Origin: Planctomycetota bacterium
GTDB lineage: Bacteria > Planctomycetota > B15-G4
DNA length: 64,000 bases
Assembly: GCA_029259725.1 (NCBI GenBank)
Contig: JAJDER010000012.1
Location: 21,559 to 85,558 of the forward strand
Direction of reading: 5' to 3'
Part shown: positions 34,836-47,274 of the stretch, piece after piece
How the letters are laid out: each line of letters opens with the position of its first letter
How positions within the stretch are numbered: the first letter of the stretch is position 1
The notes under the pieces: generated by a model
Told to the model about the DNA's origin: nothing
The model's input: only the letters and a program-made list of their open reading frames with translations
The model's database searches: none
Made by a program: the position numbers and the translations under genes

Positions 34836-36080
34836 TCACGGCAGGATGTCCTGGGAGCGGACACCGTGCACGCTGCGGCGACCTCGACCGGCCCGCGACT
34901 CCGGGAACCAGTGTTGCGTGCGCAGGCAGAACCGCACCAGCGCGAGCATCAACGGGACCTCGATGAGCACGCCGACCACGGTGGCCAGGGCGGCGCCCGA
35001 CGAGAGGCCGAAGAGCATCGCCGCGGTGGCGATGGCCACCTCGAAGTGGTTGCTCGCGCCGATCATGGCGGTGGGCGCGGCGTCGGCGTAGCGCAGCCGG
35101 AACAGGCGGGCCAGTCCATACCCGAGGGCGAAGATGAGCAGGGTCTGGACGATCAGGGGGACCGCGATCCAGAGGATGGTGAGCGGCGCGTCGAGGATCA
35201 CGTCGCCCTTGAAGGAGAACAGGAGCACGAGCGTCAGCAGCAACGCGCCGATGGTGATCGGCGTGAGCACGTGCAGGAAGCGCTGCTTGAACCAGGTCTC
35301 GCCCTTGCGCGCGATGATCCAGCGGCGCGACACGAATCCGGCGACGAGCGGCAGCGCCACGTAGATGCCGATGGACGACAGCAGCGCCTGCCACGGCACG
35401 GGCAGCCGGCCGACGCCGAGCAGGTACCCGCCCAGCACGCCGTACAGAACCAGCATGACCAGCGAGTTGACGGCGACCATGACCAGCGTGTGCCCGTCGC
35501 TGCCGCGAGCCAGGTGGCCCCAGACCAGCACCATCGCGGTGCAGGGCGCGACGCCGAGCAGGATGCAACCGGCGAGGTAGCTCCGCCACAGCGGGACCTC
35601 GAGCAGCTTGACACCCTCCTGTACCACCACGCGGCCGGCGCCGTACGTCGCGCCTTCGGCGAGGTCGAGTCCGAACGGCAGCCGGACCAGGTCGGTGGCG
35701 TCGGGCCCGATGAGGTGCAGGAACACCGTGCCCAGGAAGAAGCTCGAGATGGCCAGCATGGTGAACGGCTTGATGCACCAGTTCACGAGCAACGTCAGCA
35801 ACACGGGGCGCCTGCTCTTCCCCGCCGTGACGACCTCGGCGAAGTCGATCTTCACCATGATCGGGTACATCATCAGGAACAGGCAGATCGCGATGGGGAT
35901 CGACACGACGGGCGCGCCGTCGACATCGAGCGTCATCCCGTCCAGCGCACGGGCGAACCCCGGGGCGACGCGACCGAGCGTGATGCCGGCGCCCATGCAG
36001 AGCACGACCCAGAGCGTGAGCAGGCGCTCGAACCCGTGCATCCGGGGAGGCGCCGCGTCCGAGGCCACGGGCCCGTTCAT
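34836..36080 (-). CDS. acr3: ACR3-family arsenite efflux transporter
   Basis: [20 protein letters not shown]...[20 protein letters not shown]...[10 protein letters not shown] matches ACR3-family hallmarks. Alternative starts are at 36089 (GTG) and 36041 (ATG). Confidence 0.85.
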
Positions 36081-36093
36081 GCGTCGCACGCGC

Positions 36094-36540
36094 CTACGAA
36101 CTCGCCGTCGGCAGGATCAGCTTGTCGCCGAACCGCCGCTCGAAGAACTCCACCCGCTGCCGGCCGTTCGCGGTCTGCGTCGCGGCCCACTCGGTGTGCT
36201 GGAACGCGGTCGGCGAGCTCTCGCGGATCGGGTCGAGGAACGGGCGCACCTTGGTGTAGAGCAGGATGCCCTCGCCGCTGTTCTCGACCAGCAGCTCGGG
36301 CTCGATGATGCCGCGTTGCCCGAAGCCGAAGACCATCTCCCAGTAGCTGACGACCTGACGCCAGGCGGCGTTGTCGGCGTGGCCGAAGTCGAGGATGGCG
36401 ACGATGTCGTCGAAGCTCCGCGGCCAGAAGCCGAAGCTGATCGCGTCGCGGGACCTGCGCATCACCTCTTCGCGGCGCATCTCGTAGAGACGCAGGATGA
36501 GTTCGGCGTCCTGGAAGCCTGGGGTGTGGTCGGTGGCCAT
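36094..36540 (-). CDS. Hypothetical protein
   Basis: 148 aa from ATG 36540 ([28 protein letters not shown]...). Coding-like composition. No recognised domain. Confidence 0.55.
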
Positions 36541-36712
36541 GGAGGGTCTCCGTGTCTGGCGGGGGCGGGTCCCGCGATCATCCCAGGGTCGGGCGTGGGT
36601 CGCCACCCGGTGGAATGTCGCCGGATGCACTCGCTCTTCCCGCCGACCGAGGCCATGATTCGCGCTCCGAAGGGCGGGACACCCCGGACGACCGGCCGAG
36701 GCGGTGGTGGAG

Positions 36713-38086
36713 ATGGCGATGGCGACAGCGACGACACGGCCCTGGGACGAGTTGGCCGAGATGCTGGCTGCGGAGGCGGACGCGACCGCTCTCGAGTCCT
36801 ACCTTGACGGCCTGACCGACGGCGATGTCGTGCTCGCCGTCTCGCGCCTCGACGCCGAGGCGCGCGCGCACCTCCTGGCGACCCTCGATCCCGACGAAGC
36901 CGCCGACCTGGTGGAGCTGCTGCCCGAGACGCAGGTCGTGGAGGCCCTGGAGGACCTGCCGCCCAACGAGGCCGCGCGTATCGTCGAGGAGCTGCCGAGC
37001 AACGAGCAGGCGGACCTGCTCGGTGACCTCCATGAGCCCGAGGCCGAGGCGATCCTGGCGGAGATGAAGCCCGGCCCGGCGCAGAGGTTGCGCCGCCTGG
37101 CGGCCTACCCCGATGACGTGGCCGGCGGCCTGATGATCACCGAGCGCCTGGCCTACCGGCCGAGCCGGACCGTGGCCGCAGTCGTGTCGGACCTGCGTCT
37201 CCACGCCGAGGAGTACCAGGACTACGACATCCAGTACATCTACGTGCTCACGCGTGTCGGGCGGCTGTTGGGAGTGCTGCGCATGCGCGACCTGCTGCTC
37301 GCGCCCGAGAGCCAACGCGTGCGCGACCTCATGCGGCGCGACACGGAGACCGTGCCCGACGACATGTCGCTCGAGGAGTTGCGCCGGCTGTTCGAACGCC
37401 ATCCCTACTACGGCGTGCCGGTGGTGGACGCCCAGCAGCGGCTGCTCGGCATCGTGCAGAGGGCCGATGTCGAGGAGGCCGTGACCGAGCGCACCGAGCG
37501 CGACTTCCAGCGCGTGCAGGGTGTGATCTCGGGCGAGGAGCTGCGCAGCATGCCCCTGCTGCTGCGGTCGCGCCGGCGCCTGGCGTGGCTGGCCGTCAAC
37601 GTGGTGCTCAACATCCTGGCCGCCACGGTCATCGCGTTCCACGAGGACACGTTGACGGCGGTCATCGCGCTGGCCGTGTTCCTGCCGATCATCTCGGACA
37701 TGAGTGGCTGCTCGGGCAACCAGGCGGTGGCCGTCACGCTGCGCGAGTTGTCCCTGGGTGTGGTGGCGCCCACCGAGGCCCGGCGCGTGTGGCGCAAGGA
37801 ACTCGGCGTGGGCGTGATCAACGGCATCGTGCTCGGTCTGCTGGTGGCGCTCGCGGCCTGGGCCTGGAAGGGCAACCCCTGGCTGGGGCTCGTCGTCGGC
37901 ACGGCCATGGCCGTCAACACGCTCGTCGCCGTCTCCCTGGGGGGCACCCTGCCGCTCATCCTGCGCCGGGTCGGTGTCGACCCCGCGCTGGCGGCGGGGC
38001 CCCTGCTCACGACCGTGACGGACATGGCCGGCTTCCTGCTCGTGCTCAGTCTGGCCAGCAGCCTGCTGCCACGGCTCGTGTCATGA
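36713..38086 (+). CDS. mgtE: Magnesium transporter MgtE
   Basis: N-terminal MgtE_N helical repeats (EAADLVELLPETQVVEALEDLPPNEAARIVEELPSNEQADLLGDL), CBS pair and C-terminal TM domain with ISDMSGCSGNQA and TTVTDMAGF. ATG 36713 (GTG 36704 possible). Confidence 0.9.
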   Translation: MAMATATTRPWDELAEMLAAEADATALESYLDGLTDGDVVLAVSRLDAEARAHLLATLDPDEAADLVELLPETQVVEALEDLPPNEAARIVEELPSNEQADLLGDLHEPEAEAILAEMKPGPAQRLRRLAAYPDDVAGGLMITERLAYRPSRTVAAVVSDLRLHAEEYQDYDIQYIYVLTRVGRLLGVLRMRDLLLAPESQRVRDLMRRDTETVPDDMSLEELRRLFERHPYYGVPVVDAQQRLLGIVQRADVEEAVTERTERDFQRVQGVISGEELRSMPLLLRSRRRLAWLAVNVVLNILAATVIAFHEDTLTAVIALAVFLPIISDMSGCSGNQAVAVTLRELSLGVVAPTEARRVWRKELGVGVINGIVLGLLVALAAWAWKGNPWLGLVVGTAMAVNTLVAVSLGGTLPLILRRVGVDPALAAGPLLTTVTDMAGFLLVLSLASSLLPRLVS

Positions 38087-38146: not shown

Positions 38147-39178
38147 TCAGAGCGTGGCCAGCTCGACGTTGGTGAACCGGCCCGGCTCGGCCCTCCTGGA
38201 CTCCACCTTCCGCTCGAGCGACTCGACCACGACCGGAGCGAAGTCCACCTTCTCGAACAGTTGCGCGCTGCCGAGCCCGCCCGGGCTGAAGACGTTGATC
38301 TCCATCAGCTTGTCGCCGGCGAGGTCCAGCCCCACGAGGAACATGCCGTCCTCGATCAGGCGCGGGCGCACCTCCTCCGCGACGCGCAACATCGACTCGT
38401 CGACCTCGGCCCGGCGCAGCTTGCCGCCCGCATGGATGTTGCTGCGCAGGTCGTCACCGGTGCGGATGCGACGGAAGGCCGCGTACCGGCCCTGCTGCAC
38501 GAGCGGGAGTCCGTTCATCAGGAACATCCGGGTGTCCCCGGCCGCCGCGGCGGGCAGGTACTCCTGGGCGATCAGGTAGCCGTCGCGCGTCACGGCGCCC
38601 ACGATCTCGTCGAAGTTGCGTCGGTCCTCGCGGCGCAGGATGAACACGCCGCTCCCGCCCGAGCCGAGCAGCGGCTTGACGATGATGACGCCCTCGTCCT
38701 CCAGGAACGACCGGATGCGGTCCCGGCTGCGGGTCACGAGGGTCCGCGGGCGGACCCGTTCGGGAAAGGTCTGCAGGTAGAGCTTGTTGGACGCCTTGGC
38801 CAGGCCGTTGGGATCGTTCAGCACGAGCACGCCGCGTCGCATCGCGAGTCGTCCGAACTGGACCCCTGCGAATTGCGCCCACGGATGTTGCGCCGCCGGG
38901 TTGCTGCGCAGGAACAACACGTCGCATTCGTCGAGCACGACGGTGGCCTGGATCGCCTTGCTGCTCCTCAGGGCCTGCAGGAAGCTGTCCGACGTGTAGT
39001 GGCCGGGGGGCACCGTCCGCGCGTGCCCGCCGAGCGTGTCGTCCGGGTTGTAGGCCAGGGTGCCGGTACTCAGGATCCATGCGTCGTGCCCGCGGTTGAC
39101 GCACTCCGCGGCCAGTCGGTAGGTCGTCGCCCCCGAGGCATCGCTGTCCATCACGTTGACGACGAAACCGATCTTCAT
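38147..39178 (-). CDS. Glutathione-synthetase-like ATP-grasp ligase, paralogue 1
   Basis: 343 aa from ATG 39178 (MKIGFVVN...). It aligns along its length with E. coli GshB as I recall that sequence (LDVLFLRSNP, NDPNGLAKASNK, IVKPLLGSGGSGVF, IAQEYLPAAAAGDTRMF, RSNIHAGGK, MFLVGLDLAGDKLMEINVFSP). The ORF-track extension to 41764 is an artefact. ATGA overlap with the upstream gene. Confidence 0.85.
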   Translation of the reverse strand: MKIGFVVNVMDSDASGATTYRLAAECVNRGHDAWILSTGTLAYNPDDTLGGHARTVPPGHYTSDSFLQALRSSKAIQATVVLDECDVLFLRSNPAAQHPWAQFAGVQFGRLAMRRGVLVLNDPNGLAKASNKLYLQTFPERVRPRTLVTRSRDRIRSFLEDEGVIIVKPLLGSGGSGVFILRREDRRNFDEIVGAVTRDGYLIAQEYLPAAAAGDTRMFLMNGLPLVQQGRYAAFRRIRTGDDLRSNIHAGGKLRRAEVDESMLRVAEEVRPRLIEDGMFLVGLDLAGDKLMEINVFSPGGLGSAQLFEKVDFAPVVVESLERKVESRRAEPGRFTNVELATL

Positions 39179-41112
39179 GCGTCTTCGACCTCGGCCAGGT
39201 CCTCGCGCACGAGCTGGAGGACGGAGCCGTCGCCGTCGCGAGTGCGCGCCAGCCGCTCGGTGGTGTCCGCACGGGTCAGGTAGCGAGGCTCGAGCGGTGG
39301 CGGCAGCAGGACCTCGCGGTGCTGCAGTTCCTGGATGATGGGCAGGTGCGCGAGTGCGAACTTCCCGCTGTAGAGCGGCGCCAGGTCGTGACCCTGGCGA
39401 ACGTATCGGACGACGGACTGCAGGCCTCGCAGGTAGACGACGTCCTTGGTCAGGCCGCCGCCGCGATAGACCCGCATCGTCGTCGTGTAGGCCATCCGCG
39501 GTGAGAAGCCGTGCGTCTCGCGGAGATTGTCGAAGCTCTCGACGAAGGAGGCGCCGGCGACCAGGTGTTGCGCCGTGACGACGCGTGCCGCGAGCTGACG
39601 CATGCGGTCCCGACTCAGCCCGCCCACCAGATACTCGGCGAACACGGCCAGGCCCTCCTGCAGCTCTTCGTACGCGGACAGGCCGGAGTAGAGCTGCCGG
39701 AACGGTTGCGCCCGGCCGTTGTAGTAGGTGAGCACGTGCGTGCCGACCTCGTGCGCCAGCAACGCCTCGACCCGCGAGCGCGGCACGCTCAGGTCCCGGT
39801 TGATCATCAGCTTGCCGCGCGACACGATCAGGCCCGTCACGTTCTTGGTGATCCTCGCCGTGGCGTCGAAGTCGGGGCACGCCCGCCGGTAGTGATCGAA
39901 CTCCGCCCGTGCGAAGCCGGCGAACTGCTCGGCGTCCACGCGCATCTCGCTCGTGGTCGCCCGGGACGTCCGCGGCAGGCTGGTGAGCAGGTTCTCGGCG
40001 AGCGCGACCAGCTCGTCGTCCACCGCGCCGAACAGCTGGAGGCTCTCGTGCACGAAGCGGGGCGTGTCGCGATCCCGGAGCATCGTGAGCTTGAGTTCGA
40101 GTTCCTCCTGCTTGTCCAGGAACAGGTGCTGCAGGGCGGGATCCTCGATGCGCTCGATCGGGATCTGGTAGAGCCTGCGCTTCAGCAAGCCGGTGTCGAT
40201 CGGGAGCGGGCGGTAGTGGAACGCGGGAACGCGCTCGAAGCCGCTGCCCTTGAACACCTCGTAGGCGGCGTTCGAGTTGACCGGATTGAGCAACAGCAGG
40301 TAGTCGAAGGCATCGCTCACCGCAGCCAGTCGCCGGTCGACCTCCCAGACCGCCTTCACCACGGCCCGACGGCCCAGGGTGTGGTAGTGCTCCGGGGAGC
40401 GCGTCGTGTGCGAGCACGTGAACTCGAAGAACGCCTGACGCAGGGCGAGGCCCAGGCTGCGTCGTAGCGAGCGCATCACCGGCGGGTACTGTTGATCCGA
40501 TTCCGGACGCCGGTACACGGGCGGCACGGCGAGCCCGATGATGGCGCAGTGCGCCGCCGCGGCAGCCTCCGGCGAGAGCAGCGGTCCCAGGCCGGGGGGC
40601 TGGCAGTCGCCGTCCAGCTCCACGTTGGCCAGGACGCCCTGCTTGAGCACCTTGATCGACACGAGTCGCGACCGCAGCACGTCGACGGTGCGATCCATGC
40701 CACCGTCCTCGGGGGCGTGCACCGTGAACGTGGGTCGGACCGTGGGAACGGCCGGGTCGTTGGCGCGGCCACCGTCGGGCGCGGACCACAGCTCCACGAT
40801 CAGGAAGGAGCCGAACACACCGGACAGCTCGGCGCTGACACGATGCAGGAGGGCCCGGACCTGGGCGTCGTGGCGGGGGTCGGCGGGCGCGATCAGGTAC
40901 GAGGCGCTGGTCTTGACGAGCTGATCCGTGCCGACGTCCTTGCGATCGTGCGGCCGGCGGTAGACGCACAGGAAGGGCAGCTGCCGGTCCACGTGCAACC
41001 GGCCTCCGTCGGGCAGGCTGCGTCGGACGCGCTGGTTGTTCGCCAGGCGTTTGCACACGGCTTCGATCAGCGCATCCGAGATCTCGTTCCCGCCTCGGCG
41101 CGGCTTCTTCAC
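39175..41112 (-). CDS. DUF1704 / TIGR02421-type QEGLA-motif metallopeptidase-like protein (MATCAP-like fold)
   Basis: 645 aa, GTG start 41112. LLAHEVGTHVL (HExxxH) is followed 24 residues later by ELQEGLAVFAEY. GTGA overlap with the upstream regulator and ATGA overlap with the downstream ligase. Confidence 0.85.
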   Translation of the reverse strand: MKKPRRGGNEISDALIEAVCKRLANNQRVRRSLPDGGRLHVDRQLPFLCVYRRPHDRKDVGTDQLVKTSASYLIAPADPRHDAQVRALLHRVSAELSGVFGSFLIVELWSAPDGGRANDPAVPTVRPTFTVHAPEDGGMDRTVDVLRSRLVSIKVLKQGVLANVELDGDCQPPGLGPLLSPEAAAAAHCAIIGLAVPPVYRRPESDQQYPPVMRSLRRSLGLALRQAFFEFTCSHTTRSPEHYHTLGRRAVVKAVWEVDRRLAAVSDAFDYLLLLNPVNSNAAYEVFKGSGFERVPAFHYRPLPIDTGLLKRRLYQIPIERIEDPALQHLFLDKQEELELKLTMLRDRDTPRFVHESLQLFGAVDDELVALAENLLTSLPRTSRATTSEMRVDAEQFAGFARAEFDHYRRACPDFDATARITKNVTGLIVSRGKLMINRDLSVPRSRVEALLAHEVGTHVLTYYNGRAQPFRQLYSGLSAYEELQEGLAVFAEYLVGGLSRDRMRQLAARVVTAQHLVAGASFVESFDNLRETHGFSPRMAYTTTMRVYRGGGLTKDVVYLRGLQSVVRYVRQGHDLAPLYSGKFALAHLPIIQELQHREVLLPPPLEPRYLTRADTTERLARTRDGDGSVLQLVREDLAEVEDA

Positions 41113-42557
41113 GAGTCAGGTCTCCGGCGAGGTGGGCGGCGCGGTGGCTTGAACTCCTCCTTGCGCAGCCCGTACCGGCGCATGCGTTCGTACAGCGAGC
41201 GTGGATCGACGTCCGCGCGGCGGGCGGCCTCGGCCACGCGGCCTCCGGCGGCTCGCAGGACTCTGGCGAGGTAGGCGCGCTCCACGACCTCGAGGGTCTG
41301 ACTGCGCAGGCTTCGCAGCGTCGGCAGGTGGGCCGGGTCGTGCAGCCAGGGGGCCTCCAGCACGAGAAAGCCTCCGTCCGGGGGGGGCAGCGGGCGCGCC
41401 AGCAGGTCCGGCGGGAGATCCTCCAGCCCGATCCGATCCCCGCGGGAGAGCAGGGTAGAGCGCTCCACGACGCTCCAGAGTTCACACACGTTGCCGGGCC
41501 ACGTGTGTTGCTGCAGGGCGTCCAACGCGGATGGCGTGAAGCCGTCGACCGCCAGCCCGTAGCGGGCCCGGCACTTGCGATGGGCCGCGAGAGCGAGATC
41601 CGGCACATCCTCCGGGCGGTCGCGCAGCGGTGGTGTCGTGAGCTGGGCCAGCCCCAGACGGCGATGGAGTCCCGGATGCAGGTCCCCGCGCTCGACATGG
41701 GACTCGGGCGCATCGGCGACCGAGGCCAGGATCCGGACGTCGACGTGGAAGCGGTGGCGTCCACCGACGCGCTGGCACTCGCCCGTGTCGAGCACCTCCA
41801 GCAGCTTGGCCTGCAGGCGAAGTGGGGCGCGTTCGATGCGTTCCAGGAACAGGGTGCCCCCGTGTGCGCGCTCCATGACGCCGCGCCCGGCCGTCGGCGG
41901 GCCCGCGAGCGCCTCCGCCGCGTGCCCGAAGAGGGCGCTGTCGAGCGTCTCCTCCGGGCTGTCGCTGCAGCGGAGACTCTGGAACGGCCCCTGTGATCTC
42001 GCGCTCTCGCCGTGCAGGACGGGGCCGAGCCAGGTCTTGCCGCTGCCGGGTTCGCCCTGGATCAGGACCGGTGAGCCGCTCGCCGCGAGGCGCCGGGCCG
42101 CGTCCTGGAAGCGACGGATGGCCAGACTGCGGGTGCCCAGGGCATCCAGGCGGCGATCGAGTCGCGGCCGGGTCACCACGCGGCGGTCGCGCTCCGCGCT
42201 GGTCCGGGCGGCGATGGTCTCGAGCGCGTCCCCGAGCCTCTCGACGTCCGTGCCGGCCTCGAGCACGGCCAGGCAGCCGGCGGCCAGGCAGGCCTGTCGT
42301 TCCAGCCCGTCGGACCGGCCGATCAGGATCACGTCCGGTGCGCCGGGGGCGGCCCGGAGGGCTCGCACGAAACCCGCCGGATCCTCGCTCAGCAAGGCCG
42401 TGCCCAGGATCACCAGGTCGACGACATCCGTGCGCACCGCCGCCCAGAGCTGCGGCGCACCCTCGGCGAGCGTGACCAGCGACCGACGAGCCAGTGCCGC
42501 TCGCACGCGCTCCAGATCTGGGGAGCCGGGGATGCAGAGCAGGATCCGGAGCAGCAT
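41109..42557 (-). CDS. Degenerate NtrC-family enhancer-binding-protein-like regulator (pseudo-receiver + AAA+ + Fis HTH)
   Basis: ATG 42557 (MLLRILLCIPG...). Walker A GEPGSGKT is intact. GAFTGA is replaced by EALAGP, Walker B reads TLFLERI instead of FLDEI, the FRxDL arginine region reads LHPGL, and the receiver acidic pocket and phospho-Asp are absent. C-terminal HTH GGRVAEAARRADVDPRSLYERMRRYGL. Confidence 0.8.
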   Translation of the reverse strand: MLLRILLCIPGSPDLERVRAALARRSLVTLAEGAPQLWAAVRTDVVDLVILGTALLSEDPAGFVRALRAAPGAPDVILIGRSDGLERQACLAAGCLAVLEAGTDVERLGDALETIAARTSAERDRRVVTRPRLDRRLDALGTRSLAIRRFQDAARRLAASGSPVLIQGEPGSGKTWLGPVLHGESARSQGPFQSLRCSDSPEETLDSALFGHAAEALAGPPTAGRGVMERAHGGTLFLERIERAPLRLQAKLLEVLDTGECQRVGGRHRFHVDVRILASVADAPESHVERGDLHPGLHRRLGLAQLTTPPLRDRPEDVPDLALAAHRKCRARYGLAVDGFTPSALDALQQHTWPGNVCELWSVVERSTLLSRGDRIGLEDLPPDLLARPLPPPDGGFLVLEAPWLHDPAHLPTLRSLRSQTLEVVERAYLARVLRAAGGRVAEAARRADVDPRSLYERMRRYGLRKEEFKPPRRPPRRRPDS

Positions 42558-42629
42558 GGGACAAGGGGCGACGGCCGTCAGGGCTGCCGCTCGAGGAAGC
42601 CAGGGCGGACGTGAGCATACTCGAAACGG

Positions 42630-42668
42630 CATCTTGATTCCGATTTTCAATACATCTTGCGTCCGATT
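42630..42668. promoter_or_regulatory. Two 16-bp direct repeats (CATCTTGaTTCCGATT / CATCTTGcgTCCGATT) in the divergent promoter region
   Basis: Repeats at 42630-42645 and 42653-42668, 14/16 identical, 23 bp start-to-start. They lie in the most AT-rich patch of the 186-bp gap between the regulator operon and the FGase operon. Confidence 0.5.
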
Positions 42669-42742
42669 GGGGCGACCCGTCACACTCGGAGTCGCCGAAC
42701 AACCGACCCCGGCAGGCGACGGGGAGCCGCGAGGAAGCGTGC

Positions 42743-43558
42743 ATGCGAGCGATCTGGGAGCTGACCGAGAGAAACCTGGGCCTGCCCCTGGTCGCGACGG
42801 CCGTCCACCACGGCAGCGACCTGCGCGAGGAGCTCCATCCCCATCTGGCGTTGTCCGAGGCGGGTCGGCTCCGGGAGGAAGACCCCTACACCGGGCTTTG
42901 GACCGGCATCGCGGCGACCGGCATCGTGGTGCACCGCTCGCGCTTCGAGGTCGACCTGAACCGGCCCCGGGAGCAGGCCGTCTATCGGCAGCCCGAGGAT
43001 GCCTGGGGCCTTCGCGTCTGGAAGGGCCCCCTGCCGGACGATGTGGTCGCGCGCTCCCTGTCCGGCTACGACGCCTTCTACGCGATGCTGCACGAGCTGT
43101 ACTCCGGCTTGGCGGCTCGGCACGGGCGTTTCGTCGTCTTCGACCTGCACTCCTACAACCATCGTCGGGAAGGGCCGGACGGTCTCGCTGCCGACGTCGC
43201 CGGCAACCCGCAGGTCAACGTCGGCACGGGAACGCTCGGCGATCGCGCGCCGTGGGCCGGCGTCATCGACCGGTTCATCCACGACCTCGCCGCGTTCGAC
43301 TTTCCGGGCGGCCGACTGGACGTGCGCGAGAACGTCAAGTTCCGCGGCGGCAACGGCGGGCGCTGGGCGCACGAGACCTTCCCGGCCTCCGCATGCGTCC
43401 TGTCGATCGAGTTCAAGAAGTTCTTCATGGACGAATGGAGCGGACGCGCGGACGCGGAACTGCTCGAGGCCATCAAGGCCGCGCTCGCGAGCACGGTCCA
43501 GGGAGTCGCCGAGGAACTCGACGAGCTCCACAACCAGGACACCGGAGGAGACCCATGA
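42743..43558 (+). CDS. N-formylglutamate amidohydrolase (FGase)-family hydrolase
   Basis: 271 aa. GAGGAA upstream of the ATG. HHGSDL...EEDPYT...FEVDLNR...VVFDLHSYN...NVKFRGG pattern is typical of the FGase family. ATGA overlap with the next gene. Confidence 0.8.
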   Translation: MRAIWELTERNLGLPLVATAVHHGSDLREELHPHLALSEAGRLREEDPYTGLWTGIAATGIVVHRSRFEVDLNRPREQAVYRQPEDAWGLRVWKGPLPDDVVARSLSGYDAFYAMLHELYSGLAARHGRFVVFDLHSYNHRREGPDGLAADVAGNPQVNVGTGTLGDRAPWAGVIDRFIHDLAAFDFPGGRLDVRENVKFRGGNGGRWAHETFPASACVLSIEFKKFFMDEWSGRADAELLEAIKAALASTVQGVAEELDELHNQDTGGDP

Positions 43559-44598
43559 GACTCGGCTTCGTGGTCAATGACGTGAGTACCGAACAGGTCG
43601 GCTACACGACGATTCGACTCGCCTGCGACGCGGTCAATCGGGGCCACCAGGTCTACGTGATGGGCGCCGGGGACTTCGCCTACGACCTCGACGAGTCGAT
43701 CCGCGCCCGCGCGCGGACCGTCCCGCCGAAGAAGTACAAGTCCCACGAGACGTTCTTCGAGGACCTCACCGGCAAGAAGGCGGTCTCCGAGCGCATCTCC
43801 GTCGACGACCTCGACGTGCTCATGCTGCGGAACGTGCCCTCGGACGACGTGATCACGAGGCCCTGGGCGGCGACGATCGCCCATGAGTTCGGACGCATGG
43901 CGACGCGCCGCGGAGTCATCGTCGTCAACGATCCCAACGGACTGGCGAAGGCCGCGAGCAAGATGTACTTCCAGCTCTTCCCGGCCGAGGTCAGGCCCGC
44001 GACGCTGATCACGCGGGACCGGGACGAGATCCGGGCCATGGTCAAGGATCTGCACCGGATCGTGCTCAAGCCGCTGCAGGGCTCGGGCGGCGCGAGCGTC
44101 TTCCTGGTCCGGCCGGACGACCTGCCCAACCTCAACCAGATGATCGACGCGGTCAGTCGCGACGGCTACGTGATCGCCCAGGAGTACCTGACCGCGGCCG
44201 AGCAGGGCGACACCCGGCTGTTCGTCATGAACGGCCGCCCGCTGCGCGTGGCCGGGAAGTACGCGGCCTTCCGTCGGCTCCGGAAGGGCGACGACATGCG
44301 CAGCAACATCCACGCCGGCGGGAAGCTCGCCCCGGCCGAGATCGATTCGACCGCCCTGCGCATCGCCGAGATCGTGCGTCCCAAGCTGGTCCAGGACGGC
44401 ATGTTCCTGGTCGGCCTGGACATCGTGGGCGACAAGCTGATGGAGATCAACGTCTTCAGCCCGGGCGGCCTCGGCAGCGCGCAGAAGTTCACCAAGGTCA
44501 ACTTCAGCCGCTACGTGATCGAGGCCCTCGAGCGCAAGGCGGACTACATGGGCTTCTACGGGCGGAACTTCGACAACACCGAGGTGTGTACGCTCTGA
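43555..44598 (+). CDS. Glutathione-synthetase-like ATP-grasp ligase, paralogue 2
   Basis: 347 aa from ATG 43555 (MRLGFVVND...). Clearly paralogous to 38147-39178 (shared NDPNGLAKA, KPLQGSGGASVF, IAQEYL, GDTRLF, RSNIHAGGK, MFLVGLDIVGDKLMEINVFSPGGLGSAQ). The upstream part of ORF 41575-44598 is an artefact. Confidence 0.85.
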   Translation: MRLGFVVNDVSTEQVGYTTIRLACDAVNRGHQVYVMGAGDFAYDLDESIRARARTVPPKKYKSHETFFEDLTGKKAVSERISVDDLDVLMLRNVPSDDVITRPWAATIAHEFGRMATRRGVIVVNDPNGLAKAASKMYFQLFPAEVRPATLITRDRDEIRAMVKDLHRIVLKPLQGSGGASVFLVRPDDLPNLNQMIDAVSRDGYVIAQEYLTAAEQGDTRLFVMNGRPLRVAGKYAAFRRLRKGDDMRSNIHAGGKLAPAEIDSTALRIAEIVRPKLVQDGMFLVGLDIVGDKLMEINVFSPGGLGSAQKFTKVNFSRYVIEALERKADYMGFYGRNFDNTEVCTL

Positions 44599-44662: not shown

Positions 44663-46039
44663 ATGGTCGGTGTCGTGAACGACGCGCATGCTTCCCTCGA
44701 CGCCCTGGGAGTGGCCTGGCGACTCGGCGCGACGATCTTCTTCGTGTTCCTGAACGGCTTCTTCGTCGCGGCCGAGTTCGCGCTGGTGAAGGTCCGGCAG
44801 TCCCGCATCGACCAGCTGGCCCTGGACGGGAACCGGGCGGCCTCCCGGGTGAAGCACATCCTGCGTCACCTCGACCGCTACCTCTCGGCCTGTCAACTCG
44901 GCATCACGCTCGCGAGCCTGATCCTGGGTGCGTTGGGCGAACCGGCCGTCTCGGTCCTGCTGGTCGCCGCCGCCGAGGCGCTCGGCGTTCCCGTCGGGCC
45001 GGATGCGGGCTGGGTGTCGATCGTCTCGATCGTGCTGGCCTTCTCCGTGATCACGCTGCTGCACATGACCGTGGGCGAGCAGGCTCCGAAGATGTGGGCG
45101 CTACGCCGGTCGGAGGGCGTGGCGTTGGCCACCTCGACGACGTTGAGGACCTTCGCCTGGGTCTTCGGTCCCTTCATCGTCGCGATCAACCGGATCTCGA
45201 ACGGGATGCTGCGGGTCATCGGGTTGCCCGCCGATCTCGGTCACGAGGACAGCCACAGCGCCGAGGAGATCCGCAGCATCCTGTCCCTCTCGGCCCGCGC
45301 CGGGCACATCTCCGAGCACGAGTTGCAGCTGGCGGAGAACGTCTTCCGCCTGACCAAGCTCGAGGTTCGGCACATCGTGGTGCCGCGGGTCGAGATCGAC
45401 TTCCTGGTGCTGGATCACGCGCTCGAGAGCAACCTGGAGCGCATCCGGACCAGCGGGCACTCCCGCTTCGCGCTCTGCGAACTCGGCCTCGACACGATCG
45501 TGGGGGTGGTGCACGCCAAGGACGTCCTCGACGTGACGCTGCGCGGCGAGACGCCCGACTTGCAGGCGCTCGCGCGAGAGCCGCTGTTCGTGCCCGACAC
45601 GATGCCGCTCTCGAACTTCCTGCTCGAGCTCCAGGGGGCGAGAGAGCACGGCGCGGTGGTGCTCGACGAGCACGGGACCGCGATCGGACTCGCCTTCCGG
45701 GAGGACGCGCTGGAGGAGATCGTCGGCCCGCTCGGTGACGAGTTCGACGAGGACGAGTCGGAGATCCACGAGTCGGCCCAGGGCGTCTTCGAGGTGCGCG
45801 GCCGCGTCTCCATCCCCGAACTCGAGGACCGGCTGCGCTTCGACCTGCCCGAGGGAGAGCGCGAGGAGGAGGACACGATCGGGGGCCACATCACCGCGCG
45901 CCTCGGCCGGATGTCCAAGCAGGGCGACACGGTGCGCGTCGGGCCCTACGACGCGACGGTCATCGACGTCTCGGCCCGCAGCATCCAGCGTGTCCGCCTC
46001 TCTCCCGCGGCGCCGGACGTCGAACCAGACGACGCGTAG
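44663..46039 (+). CDS. CNNM/DUF21-CBS-CorC_HlyC family protein (putative Mg2+/Co2+ efflux, hemolysin-like)
   Basis: GGAGGA upstream of the ATG. N-terminal DUF21 TM region (FFVAAEFALVKVR), CBS pair and a C-terminal CorC_HlyC-like domain (GGHITARLGRMSKQGDTV). Confidence 0.85.
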   Translation: MVGVVNDAHASLDALGVAWRLGATIFFVFLNGFFVAAEFALVKVRQSRIDQLALDGNRAASRVKHILRHLDRYLSACQLGITLASLILGALGEPAVSVLLVAAAEALGVPVGPDAGWVSIVSIVLAFSVITLLHMTVGEQAPKMWALRRSEGVALATSTTLRTFAWVFGPFIVAINRISNGMLRVIGLPADLGHEDSHSAEEIRSILSLSARAGHISEHELQLAENVFRLTKLEVRHIVVPRVEIDFLVLDHALESNLERIRTSGHSRFALCELGLDTIVGVVHAKDVLDVTLRGETPDLQALAREPLFVPDTMPLSNFLLELQGAREHGAVVLDEHGTAIGLAFREDALEEIVGPLGDEFDEDESEIHESAQGVFEVRGRVSIPELEDRLRFDLPEGEREEEDTIGGHITARLGRMSKQGDTVRVGPYDATVIDVSARSIQRVRLSPAAPDVEPDDA

Positions 46040-46080: not shown

Positions 46081-47274
46081 TCAGAGGTTGGACGTCTTGA
46101 ACGTGTTGTCGATGTAGGTGTTTCCACCGGCGTCGTCGAACAGGTCGAACCCGCCGCTGCCGTGGGCCTTGTTCTCGGTGAACGTGTTGCCGCCGGCGTT
46201 CACCTCGAAGCCGTGGCCGTCCGCGCCCGAGGACTTGTTGCCCGTCGCGTCGAGCCCGGTGGCCTGCACGTCGAAGCCATCATCCCCGGTCTTGCTGGAC
46301 TTGTTGTCGGTGAGCGTGCAGTTGTCGCTGCCGTCGAAGATCCAGAAGCCGTCGAAGCCCGGCTTGATCGCCGTGTTCTTCGTGAGCGTGTGACCGCCGG
46401 TGCCGGCGCAGACGAAGGCGTCGTCCCCGGGCTTGGTGGCCGTGTTCTTGTCCAGCACCTGACCCGAGCCCTGGAGGTAGTAGGCGCGGAAGCCGGCCTT
46501 GATCACCTTGTTCTTGGTGAGCGTGTTGCCCGAGCCGTCGGTGATGTGGACACCGTCGTCGTCGGCGTCCTTGACGGTGTTCTTGTCGAGCTGGTTGTCC
46601 GTGCCGCCGATGGAGATGCCGTCCTCGCCGGCGTTCTTGACCGTGTTCTTGCTGTACCTCCCGTCATCCGAGTCGGTGCTGCTGATCGCGTCCAGGCCGG
46701 TGCCGTCGATGGTGTTCTTCTCGACCACGAGGTCGTTGCAGTCGGAGGCGGCGATCGCCGAGGTGCCGATGTCCTCGAACTTGCACTTCGAGATCTCGGT
46801 GTCGTTCGAGACCACCACGAAGATCCCGCGCCCCACGGTGTCGTCGATCCTGGTCTTCTCGATGCAGGTGTCGATGCTGTCCACGACGCTGATCCCGTCG
46901 TTGCCGATGTCCGAGAGGCGGAGCTTGTCGAGGTGCGCGCGGGTGCAGTCGTTGAGCGAGACCCCGTCCAGGACGGTGTTCTCGATGCGCAGCTTGCTCA
47001 GGGTGATGTCCGTCGAGCTGCTGACGGTGATCGCGGCGGTCACGCCGTCGAGCTCGATGGCCTGGACCACGACCTTGCCCTTGGCGCGGATGGTGAGGCT
47101 GTCCCGGCCGACGATCTGGAACGAAGTGTAGGTCCCGGACGACACGCGGATCTCGGCACCGTCGGGCGCCTCCTCGATGGCTTCCTGGATGGTCGGGAAG
47201 TCCTGGGGGACCTTGATGATGTTCTGGCCGGTCAGGCTCGCGACGACGAGCAGCAGGGCGAGGGCGACGCGCAT
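46081..47274 (-). CDS. Secreted right-handed parallel beta-helix (NosD-like) repeat protein
   Basis: Signal peptide MRVALALLLVVASLTG. About 15 repeats of roughly 22 aa of the form xNT(V/I/A)xxxGxDG(I/F). Confidence 0.75.
   Translation of the reverse strand: MRVALALLLVVASLTGQNIIKVPQDFPTIQEAIEEAPDGAEIRVSSGTYTSFQIVGRDSLTIRAKGKVVVQAIELDGVTAAITVSSSTDITLSKLRIENTVLDGVSLNDCTRAHLDKLRLSDIGNDGISVVDSIDTCIEKTRIDDTVGRGIFVVVSNDTEISKCKFEDIGTSAIAASDCNDLVVEKNTIDGTGLDAISSTDSDDGRYSKNTVKNAGEDGISIGGTDNQLDKNTVKDADDDGVHITDGSGNTLTKNKVIKAGFRAYYLQGSGQVLDKNTATKPGDDAFVCAGTGGHTLTKNTAIKPGFDGFWIFDGSDNCTLTDNKSSKTGDDGFDVQATGLDATGNKSSGADGHGFEVNAGGNTFTENKAHGSGGFDLFDDAGGNTYIDNTFKTSNL

What the first reader, a model, noticed from the sequence alone, without database searches (positions are those of the whole stretch)
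38147..44598. Divergent locus with two GshB-like ATP-grasp ligases, an HExxxH/QEGLA (DUF1704, MATCAP-like) metallopeptidase and an FGase-like hydrolase: candidate amino-acid tail ligation/trimming system with unknown substrate
Seen in the sequence:
- The minus-strand operon runs regulator (41109-42557), QEGLA protein (39175-41112), ligase 1 (38147-39178). The genes are chained by GTGA and ATGA start/stop overlaps.
- The divergent plus-strand operon runs FGase-like hydrolase (42743-43558), ligase 2 (43555-44598), again with an ATGA overlap.
- The two ligases are full-length paralogues. Both resemble glutathione synthetase (GshB) along their whole length, and both end in E(L/V)(A/C)TL.
- The 645-aa protein carries AHEVGTH (HExxxH) and, 24 residues later, ELQEGLAVFAEY. 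As I recall, this is the defining signature of TIGR02421/DUF1704.

Established knowledge:
- GshB/RimK-type ATP-grasps ligate amino acids onto carboxylates.
- FGase-family enzymes are metal amidohydrolases acting on N-acyl-glutamate-type bonds.
- To my recollection, the eukaryotic tubulin detyrosinase MATCAP belongs to the DUF1704 fold with the same atypical HExxxH site, so it removes a C-terminal residue.

Inference: the locus pairs two 'writers' with two 'erasers'. It could build and trim a short amino-acid tail on a protein C-terminus or a small gamma-glutamyl-type peptide. I know of no biochemical function assigned to this gene combination.
Basis: partly seen in the sequence, partly recalled or inferred. 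Interest (0 to 1): 0.75.

Follow-up and report, generated by a model that had tools for sequence, protein, structure and literature searches.

The report
Conserved bacterial ligase–peptidase–amidase module
This planctomycete locus is one copy of a three-enzyme gene set found across many bacterial phyla: a glutathione-synthetase-like ligase, a relative of the human tubulin-trimming enzyme MATCAP, and a formylglutamate-amidase-like hydrolase. It probably adds and removes amino acids on an unknown acidic substrate, it often sits next to magnesium transporters, and no one has worked out what it does.

Summary
All five genes, their 4-base overlaps and their domain calls hold.

- **The ligases are not true glutathione synthetases.** They fail both GshB equivalog cut-offs and belong to a separate clade (NF009110/PRK12458). 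That clade has an invariant C-terminal tail, ...NxxΦATL-COOH.
- **The 645-aa protein has two domains.** The C-terminal domain is MATCAP-fold with an intact HExxxH…QEG metal site. The N-terminal domain, not previously noted, is a degenerate FGase-like domain.
- **The gene set is widely conserved.** FGase→long-form QEGLA→ligase is a co-directional operon in about 62 of 81 loci from more than 10 phyla, including Sinorhizobium meliloti pSymB. One FGase::ligase fusion exists.
- **This window is an elaborated variant.** The second ligase and the split, divergent layout are specific to planctomycetes.
- **Neighbours point to ion homeostasis.** Mg2+ transporters (MgtE, CorA, CorC) and MscS channels recur next to the module. 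They flank it here too.
- **No substrate gene was found.** No conserved protein or small peptide gene accompanies the module.

Best reading: an ATP-dependent system that adds and trims amino acids on a carboxylate, most likely of a small acidic (glutamate-type) peptide, tied to Mg2+/ion balance. A protein-tail target is the main rival. The function is untested.

The parts
38147..39178 (-). Ligase 1 (343 aa): GshB-like ATP-grasp of the PRK12458 'tail' clade. This is the lig1-type paralogue, found mainly in Planctomycetota.
   Evidence: Pfam GSH-S_N + GSH-S_ATP. NF009110 scores 408.1 against a cut-off of 408. GshB equivalogs are not reached: 199.5/272 and 187.6/299. Lig1-type orthologues of 60-80% identity occur in L005, L008, L009, L011, L013, L015, L023 and L030. 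The ORF listing shows it only as the end of a spurious 1205-aa high-GC ORF.
38150..38209 (-). C-terminal extension of ligase 1 (about 20 aa, ...RFTNVELATL-COOH), absent from E. coli GshB.
39175..41112 (-). Long-form QEGLA protein (645 aa): N-terminal FGase-like degenerate domain plus C-terminal MATCAP-type metallocarboxypeptidase domain.
40393..41112 (-). N-terminal domain (residues 1-240). It has a phosphorylase/peptidase-like alpha/beta fold related to FGase. It keeps a GRxHIDRQ motif that aligns with FGase SRFEVDLNR, but it lacks the FGase His motifs (DLHS becomes ELW, and there is no AIHHG strand). It is probably non-catalytic.
   Evidence: AF2 model, pLDDT about 85 in this region. Foldseek hits FGase 2q7s (E 0.014, prob 1.0), amidase_3, PNP/MTAN and CCP5. 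hhalign against the operon's own FGase gives E 8e-4 over 175 collinear columns. No Pfam match.
39244..40257 (-). MATCAP/DUF1704 domain (residues 286-623).
   Evidence: PF08014 E 1.5e-87. Foldseek to human MATCAP 7z5g/7z6s gives E 4e-8 and TMt 0.69-0.71. phmmer to 7z5g aligns HEVGTH and QEGLA with MATCAP HEIGTH and EEGLA.
39736..39753 (-). HEVGTH (H454-E455-x3-H459): the two His metal ligands and the catalytic Glu.
   Evidence: Invariant in 22 homologues. The motif and its role are described for TMCP1/2 in PMC10499314.
39649..39669 (-). ELQEGLA motif. E486 is the presumed third metal ligand, equivalent to the 'EEG' motif of TMCPs.
41109..42557 (-). Regulator (482 aa): pseudo-receiver + AAA+ sigma-54-activator-type domain + Fis-type HTH. 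It is the first gene of the minus-strand operon.
   Evidence: Pfam. The same regulator family lies next to the module in 16 loci. In this copy GAFTGA is replaced by EALAGP, Walker B LDEI by LERI, and the receiver phospho-acceptor Asp by Gly.
42558..42742 (.). Divergent intergenic region (185 bp) holding the promoters of both operons. No convincing sigma-54 (-24/-12) element is present.
42743..43558 (+). FGase-family amidohydrolase (271 aa). The family motifs AxHxGH, REEDP, SRFEVDLNRPR, DLHSYNHRR and IEFKKFFMDEW are all present. It is not a HutG orthologue.
   Evidence: PF05013 scores 69.2 against 28.9. TIGR02017 scores 18.9 against 278.75. 56 invariant columns across 21 orthologues. No PDB relative by sequence.
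43555..44598 (+). Ligase 2 (347 aa): the core lig2-type ligase, 66-80% identical across phyla.
   Evidence: NF009110 scores 455.3 against 408.. AF2 pLDDT 91. Foldseek best match is 1gsa with TM 0.81/0.89. All GshB catalytic residues are conserved.
44536..44595 (+). C-terminal extension of ligase 2 (...KADYMGFYGRNFDNTEVCTL-COOH).
   Evidence: The ending is invariant in 86 ligases. It is predicted to be ordered (pLDDT about 82, helix 341-346).
44663..46039 (+). CNNM/CorC-family divalent-cation transporter. It lies 65 bp downstream of lig2 on the same strand and is probably co-transcribed.
   Evidence: Pfam CNNM + CBS + CorC_HlyC. CorC is next to the module in 8 loci.
36704..38086 (+). MgtE Mg2+ channel, convergent with lig1 (61-bp gap).
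   Evidence: TIGR00400 scores 273.8 against 232.75. MgtE is next to the module in 13 loci and lies inside the operon in L039.

Best explanation
The locus is a planctomycete elaboration of a widespread three-gene module: FGase-like amidohydrolase, long-form QEGLA/MATCAP-type metallocarboxypeptidase, and PRK12458-type GshB-like ATP-grasp ligase.

Proposed mechanism:
- The ligase activates a free (C-terminal) carboxylate as an acyl-phosphate and adds an amino acid, as GshB and RimK do.
- The MATCAP domain removes C-terminal residues again.
- The FGase-like enzyme hydrolyses the remaining N-acyl-amino-acid (N-acyl-glutamate-type) bond.
- The degenerate FGase-like N-domain of the QEGLA protein binds the same substrate moiety, or docks the FGase or the ligase.

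I consider the most likely substrate to be a small cytoplasmic acidic (glutamate-type) di- or oligopeptide rather than a protein. I propose that its build-up and breakdown serve Mg2+/ionic or osmotic homeostasis. The extra ligase here (lig1) would add a second residue or a second specificity.

Shown: the domain identities, intact catalytic motifs, conservation of the gene set, one fusion, and the transporter neighbourhood.

Inferred: the reaction, the substrate class and the physiological role.
For: Identity and integrity of the enzymes:
- Domain and family calls.
- Every GshB catalytic residue is conserved in 88 ligases. These are the equivalents of R86, K125, K160, the G164-G167 loop, R210, R225, R233, N235, D273, E281 and N283.
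- The ligase model superposes on GshB 1gsa (TM 0.81/0.89), including the lid loops that close over a small substrate.
- The family also has extra invariant arginines (R147, R243, R275) that E. coli GshB lacks, which suggests a more anionic substrate.
- The HExxxH...E site is invariant and the fold is MATCAP. MATCAP-family enzymes remove C-terminal Tyr or Glu and polyglutamate (PMC10499314).
- The FGase motifs are invariant.

Coupling of the genes:
- The co-directional triad occurs in about 62 of 81 loci from Planctomycetota, Chloroflexota, Acidobacteriota, Gemmatimonadota, Bacteroidota/Ignavibacteria, Calditrichota, Poribacteria, Kiritimatiellia, Myxococcota and Alphaproteobacteria.
- P0121 is an FGase::ligase fusion.
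- An FGase-derived domain is fused to the peptidase.

Small solute and ion link:
- MgtE, CorA, CorC or an MgtE_N-CBS protein lies within 10 kb in 25 of 81 loci and directly adjacent in 15. Among loci with at least 5 kb on both flanks the figure is 16 of 45.
- MgtE sits inside the operon in L039. MscS-type channels occur in 15 loci.
- No conserved candidate substrate protein and no small precursor ORF accompanies the module.

Not GshB:
- Both equivalog cut-offs are failed and the ligases form a separate clade.
- The S. meliloti 2011 gshB mutant lacks GSH although pSymB carries the module.
Against: - No substrate or product is known, and nothing here tests chemistry.
- The only characterised MATCAP-family enzymes act on protein tails, not on free peptides.
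- The invariant ligase C-terminus is unexplained by a small-molecule model.
- Placing synthesis and degradation genes in one operon risks a futile cycle unless activity is regulated after translation.
- Mg2+ transporters are absent from most loci, and from the rhizobial copies, where the neighbours are sugar ABC transporters. The link is therefore facultative.
- No Mg2+ riboswitch was found.
- The enrichment over background is my estimate, not a computed control.
Confidence: 0.45

Rival explanations
1. A protein C-terminal tailing system, the bacterial counterpart of tubulin tyrosination/glutamylation. The ligase(s) add residues to the C-terminus of a specific protein encoded elsewhere, or to the ligase's own conserved tail. 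The MATCAP domain and the FGase remove them, as TTL/TTLL are opposed by MATCAP/CCP, or as in RimK with ribosomal protein S6.
For: - The MATCAP fold and metal site. All characterised family members are protein-tail carboxypeptidases and deglutamylases.
- RimK, ArgX and LysX, the next-best structural matches of the ligase, all act on protein C-termini.
- The ligase's ...NxxΦATL-COOH end is invariant across phyla, which implies that its free C-terminus is recognised by something.
- The number of ligase and peptidase copies varies between loci: up to 3 ligases and 2 QEGLA genes in L008, L009, L011 and L013. This is reminiscent of initiator and elongator enzymes.
Against: - No conserved substrate gene lies in 81 neighbourhoods.
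- The ligase keeps GshB's N-domain and closing loops.
- The ligase tail is predicted to be ordered (pLDDT about 82, helical) rather than a free flexible tail.
- The tail ends in hydrophobic Leu, unlike the acidic acceptors of RimK and TTL.
- FGase-family enzymes are known only on small molecules.
Confidence: 0.27
2. A catabolic or salvage route for imported or stress-derived peptides or N-acyl amino acids (gamma-glutamyl peptides, N-acyl-glutamates, pteroyl-glutamate-like compounds). The two hydrolases do the main work. The ligase recycles or activates an intermediate.
For: - Two hydrolases accompany one ligase in the core module.
- The FGase family is catabolic in histidine degradation (family knowledge).
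- The neighbours are ABC transporters in rhizobia and an AA_permease in 5 loci.
Against: - The ligase is the most conserved of the three proteins: 66-80% identical across phyla, against 42-60% for QEGLA. It is also fused to FGase in P0121. It is therefore central, not accessory.
- ATP-consuming ligation is unusual in peptide catabolism.
- No dedicated uptake system is conserved with the module.
Confidence: 0.15
3. The ligases are simply extra glutathione (or glutathione-analogue) synthetases, as RefSeq annotates them. The neighbours are an unrelated or thiol-recycling accessory set.
For: - Full-length similarity to E. coli GshB (E 7e-40).
- RefSeq names them 'glutathione synthetase/synthase'.
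- The GshB catalytic and lid residues are conserved.
Against: - Scores are far below both GshB equivalog cut-offs.
- They form a distinct clade with a C-terminal extension and altered pocket residues: GshB T288/C289/R291 become G/G/G.
- They are strictly linked to QEGLA and FGase rather than to gshA.
- The S. meliloti 2011 gshB mutant has no GSH despite carrying the pSymB copy.
Confidence: 0.05

Closest known systems
Tubulin tyrosination/glutamylation cycle (TTL/TTLL ATP-grasp ligases against MATCAP/TMCP and CCP carboxypeptidases)
   Same: An ATP-grasp ligase is paired with a MATCAP-fold HExxxH metallocarboxypeptidase. A third hydrolase has a carboxypeptidase-like alpha/beta fold; CCP5 appears among the weak fold matches of the FGase-like domain. 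TMCPs remove C-terminal Tyr, Glu and polyGlu.
   Different: The ligase is GshB-type, not TTL-type. There is no tubulin or other identified protein substrate. The peptidase carries an extra FGase-like N-domain. The genes are operon-encoded and linked to ion transporters.
Glutathione synthetase GshB (E. coli, PDB 1gsa)
   Same: The same fold over the whole length (TM 0.81/0.89), the same catalytic residues and the same lid loops.
   Different: About 31% identity. Fails the equivalog cut-offs. Has a 20-aa invariant C-terminal extension, extra invariant Arg residues and a glycine-rich pocket segment. The genomic partners are QEGLA and FGase, not gshA. It does not replace gshB in S. meliloti.
RimK-RimA/RimB system (polyglutamylation of ribosomal protein S6, with an associated protease)
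   Same: An ATP-grasp ligase that extends a C-terminal carboxylate with Glu is encoded with a peptidase that counteracts it. The second-best structural match of the ligase is RimK.
   Different: RimK-family scores are well below the cut-off (56-74 bits against 143). The partner peptidases differ: retropepsin-like RimB against MATCAP-type plus FGase. No S6 link was seen.
NAAG/beta-citrylglutamate metabolism (RIMKLA/B ATP-grasp synthetases against GCPII/III metallopeptidases). This comparison is from my own knowledge.
   Same: A small N-acyl-glutamate-type acidic compound is made by an ATP-grasp ligase and destroyed by a metallocarboxypeptidase. The product chelates metals.
   Different: Animal enzymes from different families. 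No evidence here for the product.
Short-form TIGR02421 'flavohemoglobin expression-modulating QEGLA motif protein' (PA3697 type)
   Same: The same PF08014 domain and QEGLA motif. RefSeq gives long-form proteins the same name.
   Different: Short forms (430-456 aa; Pseudoalteromonas and Legionella) are only 25-27% identical, lack the N-domain, and stand alone without FGase or ligase. The window protein is below the TIGR02421 cut-off. The name is therefore probably over-transferred.

Membership tests
Glutathione synthase GshB (equivalogs NF003573 / TIGR01380) | Score at or above the curated equivalog cut-off | tested here: not met
   lig1 scores 199.5/272 and 187.6/299. lig2 scores 207.2/272 and 189.1/299.
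Glutathione synthase GshB | ATP-grasp catalytic and lid residues: the equivalents of K125, K160, G164-167, R210, R225, R233, N235, D273, E281 and N283 | tested here: met
   All are at least 97% conserved in 88 ligases aligned with E. coli GshB.
Glutathione synthase GshB | Makes glutathione, or substitutes for gshB | tested here: inconclusive
   The evidence is indirect. The S. meliloti 2011 gshB (SMc00419) mutant lacks GSH (PMC7063052), although pSymB carries the module. Expression of the paralogue is unknown.
NF009110 / PRK12458 'glutathione synthetase' subfamily | Score at or above the cut-off of 408, full-length match, C-terminal extension | tested here: met
   lig2 scores 455.3. lig1 scores 408.1, only just passing. 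Both match model positions 1-349 of 349. The tail is conserved.
RimK family (TIGR00768) | Score at or above 143.4 | tested here: not met
   56.5 and 73.9 bits.
MATCAP / DUF1704 (PF08014) | Pfam gathering score | tested here: met
   294.4 bits against 27.
MATCAP / DUF1704 (PF08014) | HExxxH plus a downstream Glu (EEG/QEG) metal site | tested here: met
   H454, E455, H459 and E486 are invariant. They align with MATCAP HEIGTH and EEGLA. The role of the motif is taken from PMC10499314.
MATCAP / DUF1704 (PF08014) | Fold similarity to the solved MATCAP structure | tested here: met
   Foldseek to 7z5g/7z6s gives E 4e-8, prob 1.0 and TMt 0.69-0.71.
MATCAP / DUF1704 (PF08014) | Carboxypeptidase activity on a C-terminal residue | not testable with these tools
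   Needs an enzyme assay.
TIGR02421 QEGLA (hypothetical equivalog, PA3697 type) | Score at or above 338.65 and the same architecture | tested here: not met
   329.3 bits, covering residues 259-622 only. There is an extra 260-aa N-domain. Short forms are stand-alone genes.
FGase family (PF05013) | Pfam gathering score and conserved family motifs | tested here: met
   69.2 bits against 28.9. H22, E45-D47, R67, D71, N73, R74, H136 and E223 are invariant in 21 orthologues. The assignment of these residues to the metal and substrate sites is from memory.
HutG N-formylglutamate deformylase (TIGR02017) | Equivalog cut-off of 278.75 | tested here: not met
   18.9 bits.
Sigma-54-dependent activator (bEBP) | AAA+ Sigma54_activat domain + HTH_8 | tested here: met
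   134 bits and 38 bits.
Sigma-54-dependent activator (bEBP) | GAFTGA loop, Walker B DE pair, and a cognate -24/-12 promoter | tested here: not met
   The window protein has EALAGP in place of GAFTGA and LERI in place of LDEI. No -24/-12 element lies in 42558-42742. Orthologues in L039, L023, L068 and L038 keep the motifs, and L035, L039 and L040 have perfect TGGCAC-N5-TTGCT elements upstream of FGase.

The most novel reading that the evidence does not exclude
The module is a prokaryotic reversible system for tailing C-termini with amino acids. It would be the ancestral form of the eukaryotic 'tubulin code' pairing of an ATP-grasp writer with a MATCAP eraser. The ligase's own invariant ...ATL-COOH tail, or another protein terminus, would be written and erased to control Mg2+/ion homeostasis. 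The FGase-like enzyme would remove the first (branch or N-acyl) residue, as CCP5 does.
Probability: 0.15. Interest if true: 0.85.

Novelty: new variant of a known kind. Interest (0 to 1): 0.62.

Why it matters
- **An uncharacterised system on a large scale.** This gene set spans more than ten phyla and is present in the genetically tractable S. meliloti, yet it has no assigned function. Its parts are annotated misleadingly as 'glutathione synthetase', 'N-formylglutamate amidohydrolase' and 'flavohemoglobin expression-modulating protein'.
- **A bacterial context for MATCAP.** It gives the bacterial setting of the MATCAP/TMCP fold, always paired with an ATP-grasp ligase. That bears on how the eukaryotic tubulin tail-modifying enzymes arose.
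- **An unexpected link to magnesium.** The recurrent adjacency to MgtE, CorA, CorC and MscS points to a peptide-based component of Mg2+/ionic homeostasis. This can be tested directly by knock-outs, metabolomics and enzyme assays.
- **A practical correction.** Genome-scale models should not count these ligases as glutathione synthetases.

Tried and rejected
1. Scanning genome contigs with the single protein found nothing. An alignment was needed.
2. The Iyer et al. 2009 amidoligase paper (PMC3268129), which may already describe this neighbourhood, is not held. Domínguez-Ferreras 2006 is not held either. I therefore could not exclude a prior computational description.
3. Literature searches turned up no functional study of the gene set. 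I searched for DUF1704, QEGLA, MATCAP + bacteria, FGase + ATP-grasp, and my guessed S. meliloti locus tags SMb21584-86. The locus tags are from memory and unverified.
4. No PDB relative of the FGase-like protein was found by sequence.
5. The N-domain gave no Pfam hit. Its FGase relationship rests on Foldseek plus a marginal hhalign result (prob 24%, E 8e-4).
6. No Rfam family, including the Mg2+ riboswitch, was found in the window or in five loci next to Mg2+ transporters.
7. There is no conserved small ORF or precursor peptide next to the module, so a RiPP-type system is rejected.
8. The C-termini of the neighbouring MgtE, CorA and CorC show no shared tail motif. The idea that the transporters themselves are the tailed substrates is therefore not supported.
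9. No sigma-54 promoter lies in the window's intergenic region.

Full report
**1. Observation**

The three 4-base start/stop overlaps were read directly: ctcGTGAag, gcATGAag and ccATGAga. In the mechanical ORF list, lig1 appears only as the tail of a spurious 1205-aa ORF, which is a high-GC artefact. Homology fixes its start at 39178. The regulator start at 42557 agrees with an independent gene call on a Logan contig carrying the identical locus. The window is about 70% G+C. The 645-aa protein is identical to an NCBI/Logan entry, and its closest relatives are Planctomycetota MAGs.

**2. What the proteins are**

*The ligases.* Both carry GSH-S_N + GSH-S_ATP and align end to end with E. coli GshB (E 7e-40). 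They reach only 188-207 bits on the two GshB equivalog models, whose cut-offs are 272 and 299. They do pass the separate NF009110/PRK12458 subfamily model: 455 bits for lig2 and 408.1 for lig1, against a cut-off of 408.

I built an NJ tree from 125 sequences: 50%-identity representatives found with lig2, ligases from the related loci, E. coli GshB, and RimK as outgroup. It places lig1 and lig2 in a derived clade away from E. coli GshB. The tree was not bootstrapped.

All residues needed for GshB chemistry are conserved. The family adds invariant W104, R147, R243 and R275, and it replaces GshB T288/C289/R291 with Gly. The AF2 model (pLDDT 91) superposes best on GshB 1gsa (TM 0.81/0.89), then on RimK and ArgX/LysX.

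*The ligase tail.* The most striking feature of the family is a roughly 20-residue C-terminal extension ending ...YMxYYxRNFDNV(E/D)M(A/C/S)TL. It terminates at the same residue in 86 ligases from many phyla. Members only 41-52% identical still keep it as Nxx[LMI]A[TS][LMI]. The tail is predicted to be ordered (pLDDT about 82, short helix).

*The 645-aa protein.* It matches PF08014 (DUF1704, now named MATCAP) over residues 286-623 (E 1.5e-87). It falls just below the TIGR02421 cut-off. HEVGTH and the Glu of QEGLA are invariant and align with HEIGTH and EEGLA of human MATCAP. The AF2 model (pLDDT 83) matches MATCAP structures at E 4e-8 and TM about 0.7.

MATCAP/TMCP enzymes are HExxxH metallocarboxypeptidases. 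They remove C-terminal Tyr and Glu and shorten polyglutamate chains (PMC10499314).

Residues 1-260 lie outside the Pfam model but are strongly conserved. They fold as an alpha/beta domain whose best structural matches are an FGase (2q7s, prob 1.0), amidase_3, nucleoside phosphorylases and CCP5. A profile-profile comparison with the operon's own FGase aligns 175 collinear columns (E 8e-4, prob 24%):
- GRxHIDRQ aligns with SRFEVDLNR.
- ExW aligns with DLH.
- GLEV aligns with IEFK.

The His ligand is replaced by Trp, the N-terminal AIHHG/REEDP segment is missing, and in this clade the Glu is Ala. I therefore read this domain as a non-catalytic FGase derivative. That is an inference.

*The hydrolase.* The 271-aa protein passes the FGase Pfam threshold but not the HutG equivalog. 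It keeps all family motifs, with 56 invariant columns.

*The regulator.* It has the AAA+ and HTH domains of sigma-54 activators. It has lost GAFTGA, the Walker B DE pair and the receiver Asp.

**3. Comparative genomics**

An alignment-based scan returned 585 hits, of which I kept 80 loci. tblastn mapping and ORF clustering show a co-directional FGase→QEGLA(long)→lig2-type ligase operon in about 62 of 81 loci. Most of the exceptions are truncated contigs. The phyla are Planctomycetota, Chloroflexota, Acidobacteriota, Gemmatimonadota, Ignavibacteria/Bacteroidota, Calditrichota, Poribacteria, Kiritimatiellia, Sumerlaeota and Myxococcota.

The same operon lies on rhizobial megaplasmids, including S. 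meliloti 1021/2011 pSymB. There the ligase is 47% identical to lig2 and ends ...NRTLAVL.

The ligase is the most conserved member of the set: 66-80% identical across phyla, against 50-67% for FGase and 42-60% for QEGLA.

Planctomycetes elaborate the core to as many as three ligases and two QEGLA genes (L008, L009, L011, L013). The window's split into reg-QEGLA-lig1 and FGase-lig2 is one such variant. One metagenomic protein, P0121, fuses FGase to the ligase.

Short-form QEGLA proteins of Gammaproteobacteria are the source of the 'flavohemoglobin expression-modulating' name, via P. aeruginosa PA3697. They are 25-27% identical, lack the N-domain and stand alone.

**4. Neighbours**

Beyond the three core genes, the recurrent neighbour families are:

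| Family | Loci |
|---|---|
| Regulator, same sigma-54-activator family | 16 |
| MscS-type channels | 15 |
| MgtE | 13 |
| CorA | 11 |
| CorC/CNNM | 8 |
| MgtE_N-CBS protein | 5 |
| 757-aa AA_permease | 5 |
| DUF1611 | 5 |

A Mg2+ transporter lies within 10 kb in 25 of 81 loci and is directly adjacent in 15. Among loci with at least 5 kb on both sides the figure is 16 of 45. In L039, mgtE sits between QEGLA and the ligase. In the window, CorC follows lig2 by 65 bp and MgtE abuts lig1.

By my rough estimate the background expectation is a few percent. I did not compute a control.

Several further tests found no supporting feature:
- No Mg2+ riboswitch was found.
- No conserved protein with a tail motif and no small precursor ORF accompanies the module.

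Canonical sigma-54 promoters lie upstream of FGase in 13 of 69 loci, against about 2.4 expected. They are perfect in L035, L039 and L040, which also encode the activator. None is present in the window, which is consistent with its degenerate regulator.

**5. Mechanism**

*Shown.* A catalytically intact GshB-type ligase, a catalytically intact MATCAP-type peptidase and an FGase-type amidohydrolase are inherited, and occasionally fused, as one unit.

*Inferred.* The ligase extends a free carboxylate by an amino acid via an acyl-phosphate. The MATCAP domain reverses this at the C-terminus. The FGase-like enzyme cleaves the residual N-acyl-amino-acid bond.

*Arguments for a small acidic, probably glutamate-containing, peptide as the substrate:*
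- The ligase retains GshB's N-domain and its closing loops.
- The family has extra invariant arginines.
- FGase enzymes have a small-molecule precedent.
- There is no substrate gene.
- The neighbours are transporters and channels.

*Arguments for a protein tail:*
- MATCAP-family enzymes have only protein-tail precedents.
- The ligase's free C-terminus is invariant.

I put the small-peptide, ion-homeostasis reading at about 0.45, the protein-tail reading at about 0.27, catabolic salvage at about 0.15 and true glutathione synthesis at about 0.05. The last is further weakened because the S. meliloti 2011 gshB mutant has no GSH (PMC7063052), although that strain carries the module.

**6. Novelty**

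All three families are catalogued, and PGAP names them individually. I found no paper that treats them as a system or assigns a function. The 2009 Aravind-lab amidoligase survey could not be read and may already list the neighbourhood.

- the FGase-like N-domain of the peptidase;
- the invariant ligase tail;
- the FGase::ligase fusion;
- the Mg2+-transporter/MscS association;
- the distinction between long-form, module-bound QEGLA proteins and short-form, stand-alone ones.

I rate the finding as a new variant of a known kind, namely ATP-grasp ligase plus peptidase systems that modify peptides. Interest is moderate to high (0.62).

Noticed in passing
window 41109-42557 (-): The regulator is a degenerate sigma-54-type activator. 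GAFTGA is replaced by EALAGP, Walker B LDEI by LERI, and the receiver phospho-acceptor Asp by Gly. Its Sigma54_activat score is 134 bits, against 210-245 for orthologues. It probably acts without sigma-54 or ATP hydrolysis.
   Followed up: partly
L035, L039, L040 (perfect matches); L009, L011, L013, L016, L023, L034 (9/11 matches); all 68-224 nt upstream of the FGase start: Canonical sigma-54 -24/-12 elements (TGGCAC-N5-TTGCT) precede the module in 13 of 69 loci, against about 2.4 expected. They often occur alongside the activator gene. The window has none.
   Followed up: partly
P0121 (624 aa, metagenomic representative): A single protein fuses an FGase domain (residues about 1-270) to a tail-family ligase (278-621). 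It ends ...NNVSMAIV.
   Followed up: partly
L090 7001-7957 (Pseudoalteromonas xiamenensis); L091 7001-8005 (Legionella adelaidensis): Short-form QEGLA proteins (430-456 aa) carry the same RefSeq name but stand alone, next to unrelated genes. In Legionella the neighbour is murI (glutamate racemase). The 'flavohemoglobin expression-modulating' name is probably over-transferred to the long form.
   Followed up: partly
L089 6314-10115 (S. meliloti pSymB-type replicon); NC_003078.1 about 1,123,629-1,127,857: The model rhizobium S. meliloti 1021/2011 carries the complete module. It lies between an exopolysaccharide/copper-ATPase region and a ytfQ-type sugar ABC transporter. This offers a tractable organism for genetics.
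   Followed up: partly
L002 11962-12465; L017 11920-12312; L012 14156-15186; L057 11901-12942: Some ligase copies look truncated or frameshifted. Examples are a 167-aa GSH-S_N-only gene in Bythopirellula and fragments in a Polyangia MAG. This suggests decay of extra paralogues, or assembly errors.
   Followed up: no
L034 3127-4254; L037, L071, L076, L077: A DUF1611 protein (P-loop + Rossmann-like domains) recurs within 10 kb of the module in 5 loci. Its relevance is unknown.
   Followed up: no
window 46081-47274 (-): A right-handed beta-helix/NosD-like protein with a signal-peptide-like N-terminus lies in a stretch of slightly lower G+C (0.674) and strong negative AT skew (-0.184).
   Followed up: no
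window 38147-41764 (-) and 41575-44598 (+): the ORF listing reports 1205-aa and 1007-aa ORFs that run through several real genes. Many conserved 'shadow' ORFs also lie on the opposite strand of the module genes; they clustered as families 3-7. These are high-GC artefacts, not genes.
   Followed up: yes
window 34836-36089 (-), 36094-36630 (-): Upstream neighbours are an SBF/ACR3-type sodium-symporter-family transporter and a DUF4760 protein. Neither is conserved with the module.
   Followed up: partly
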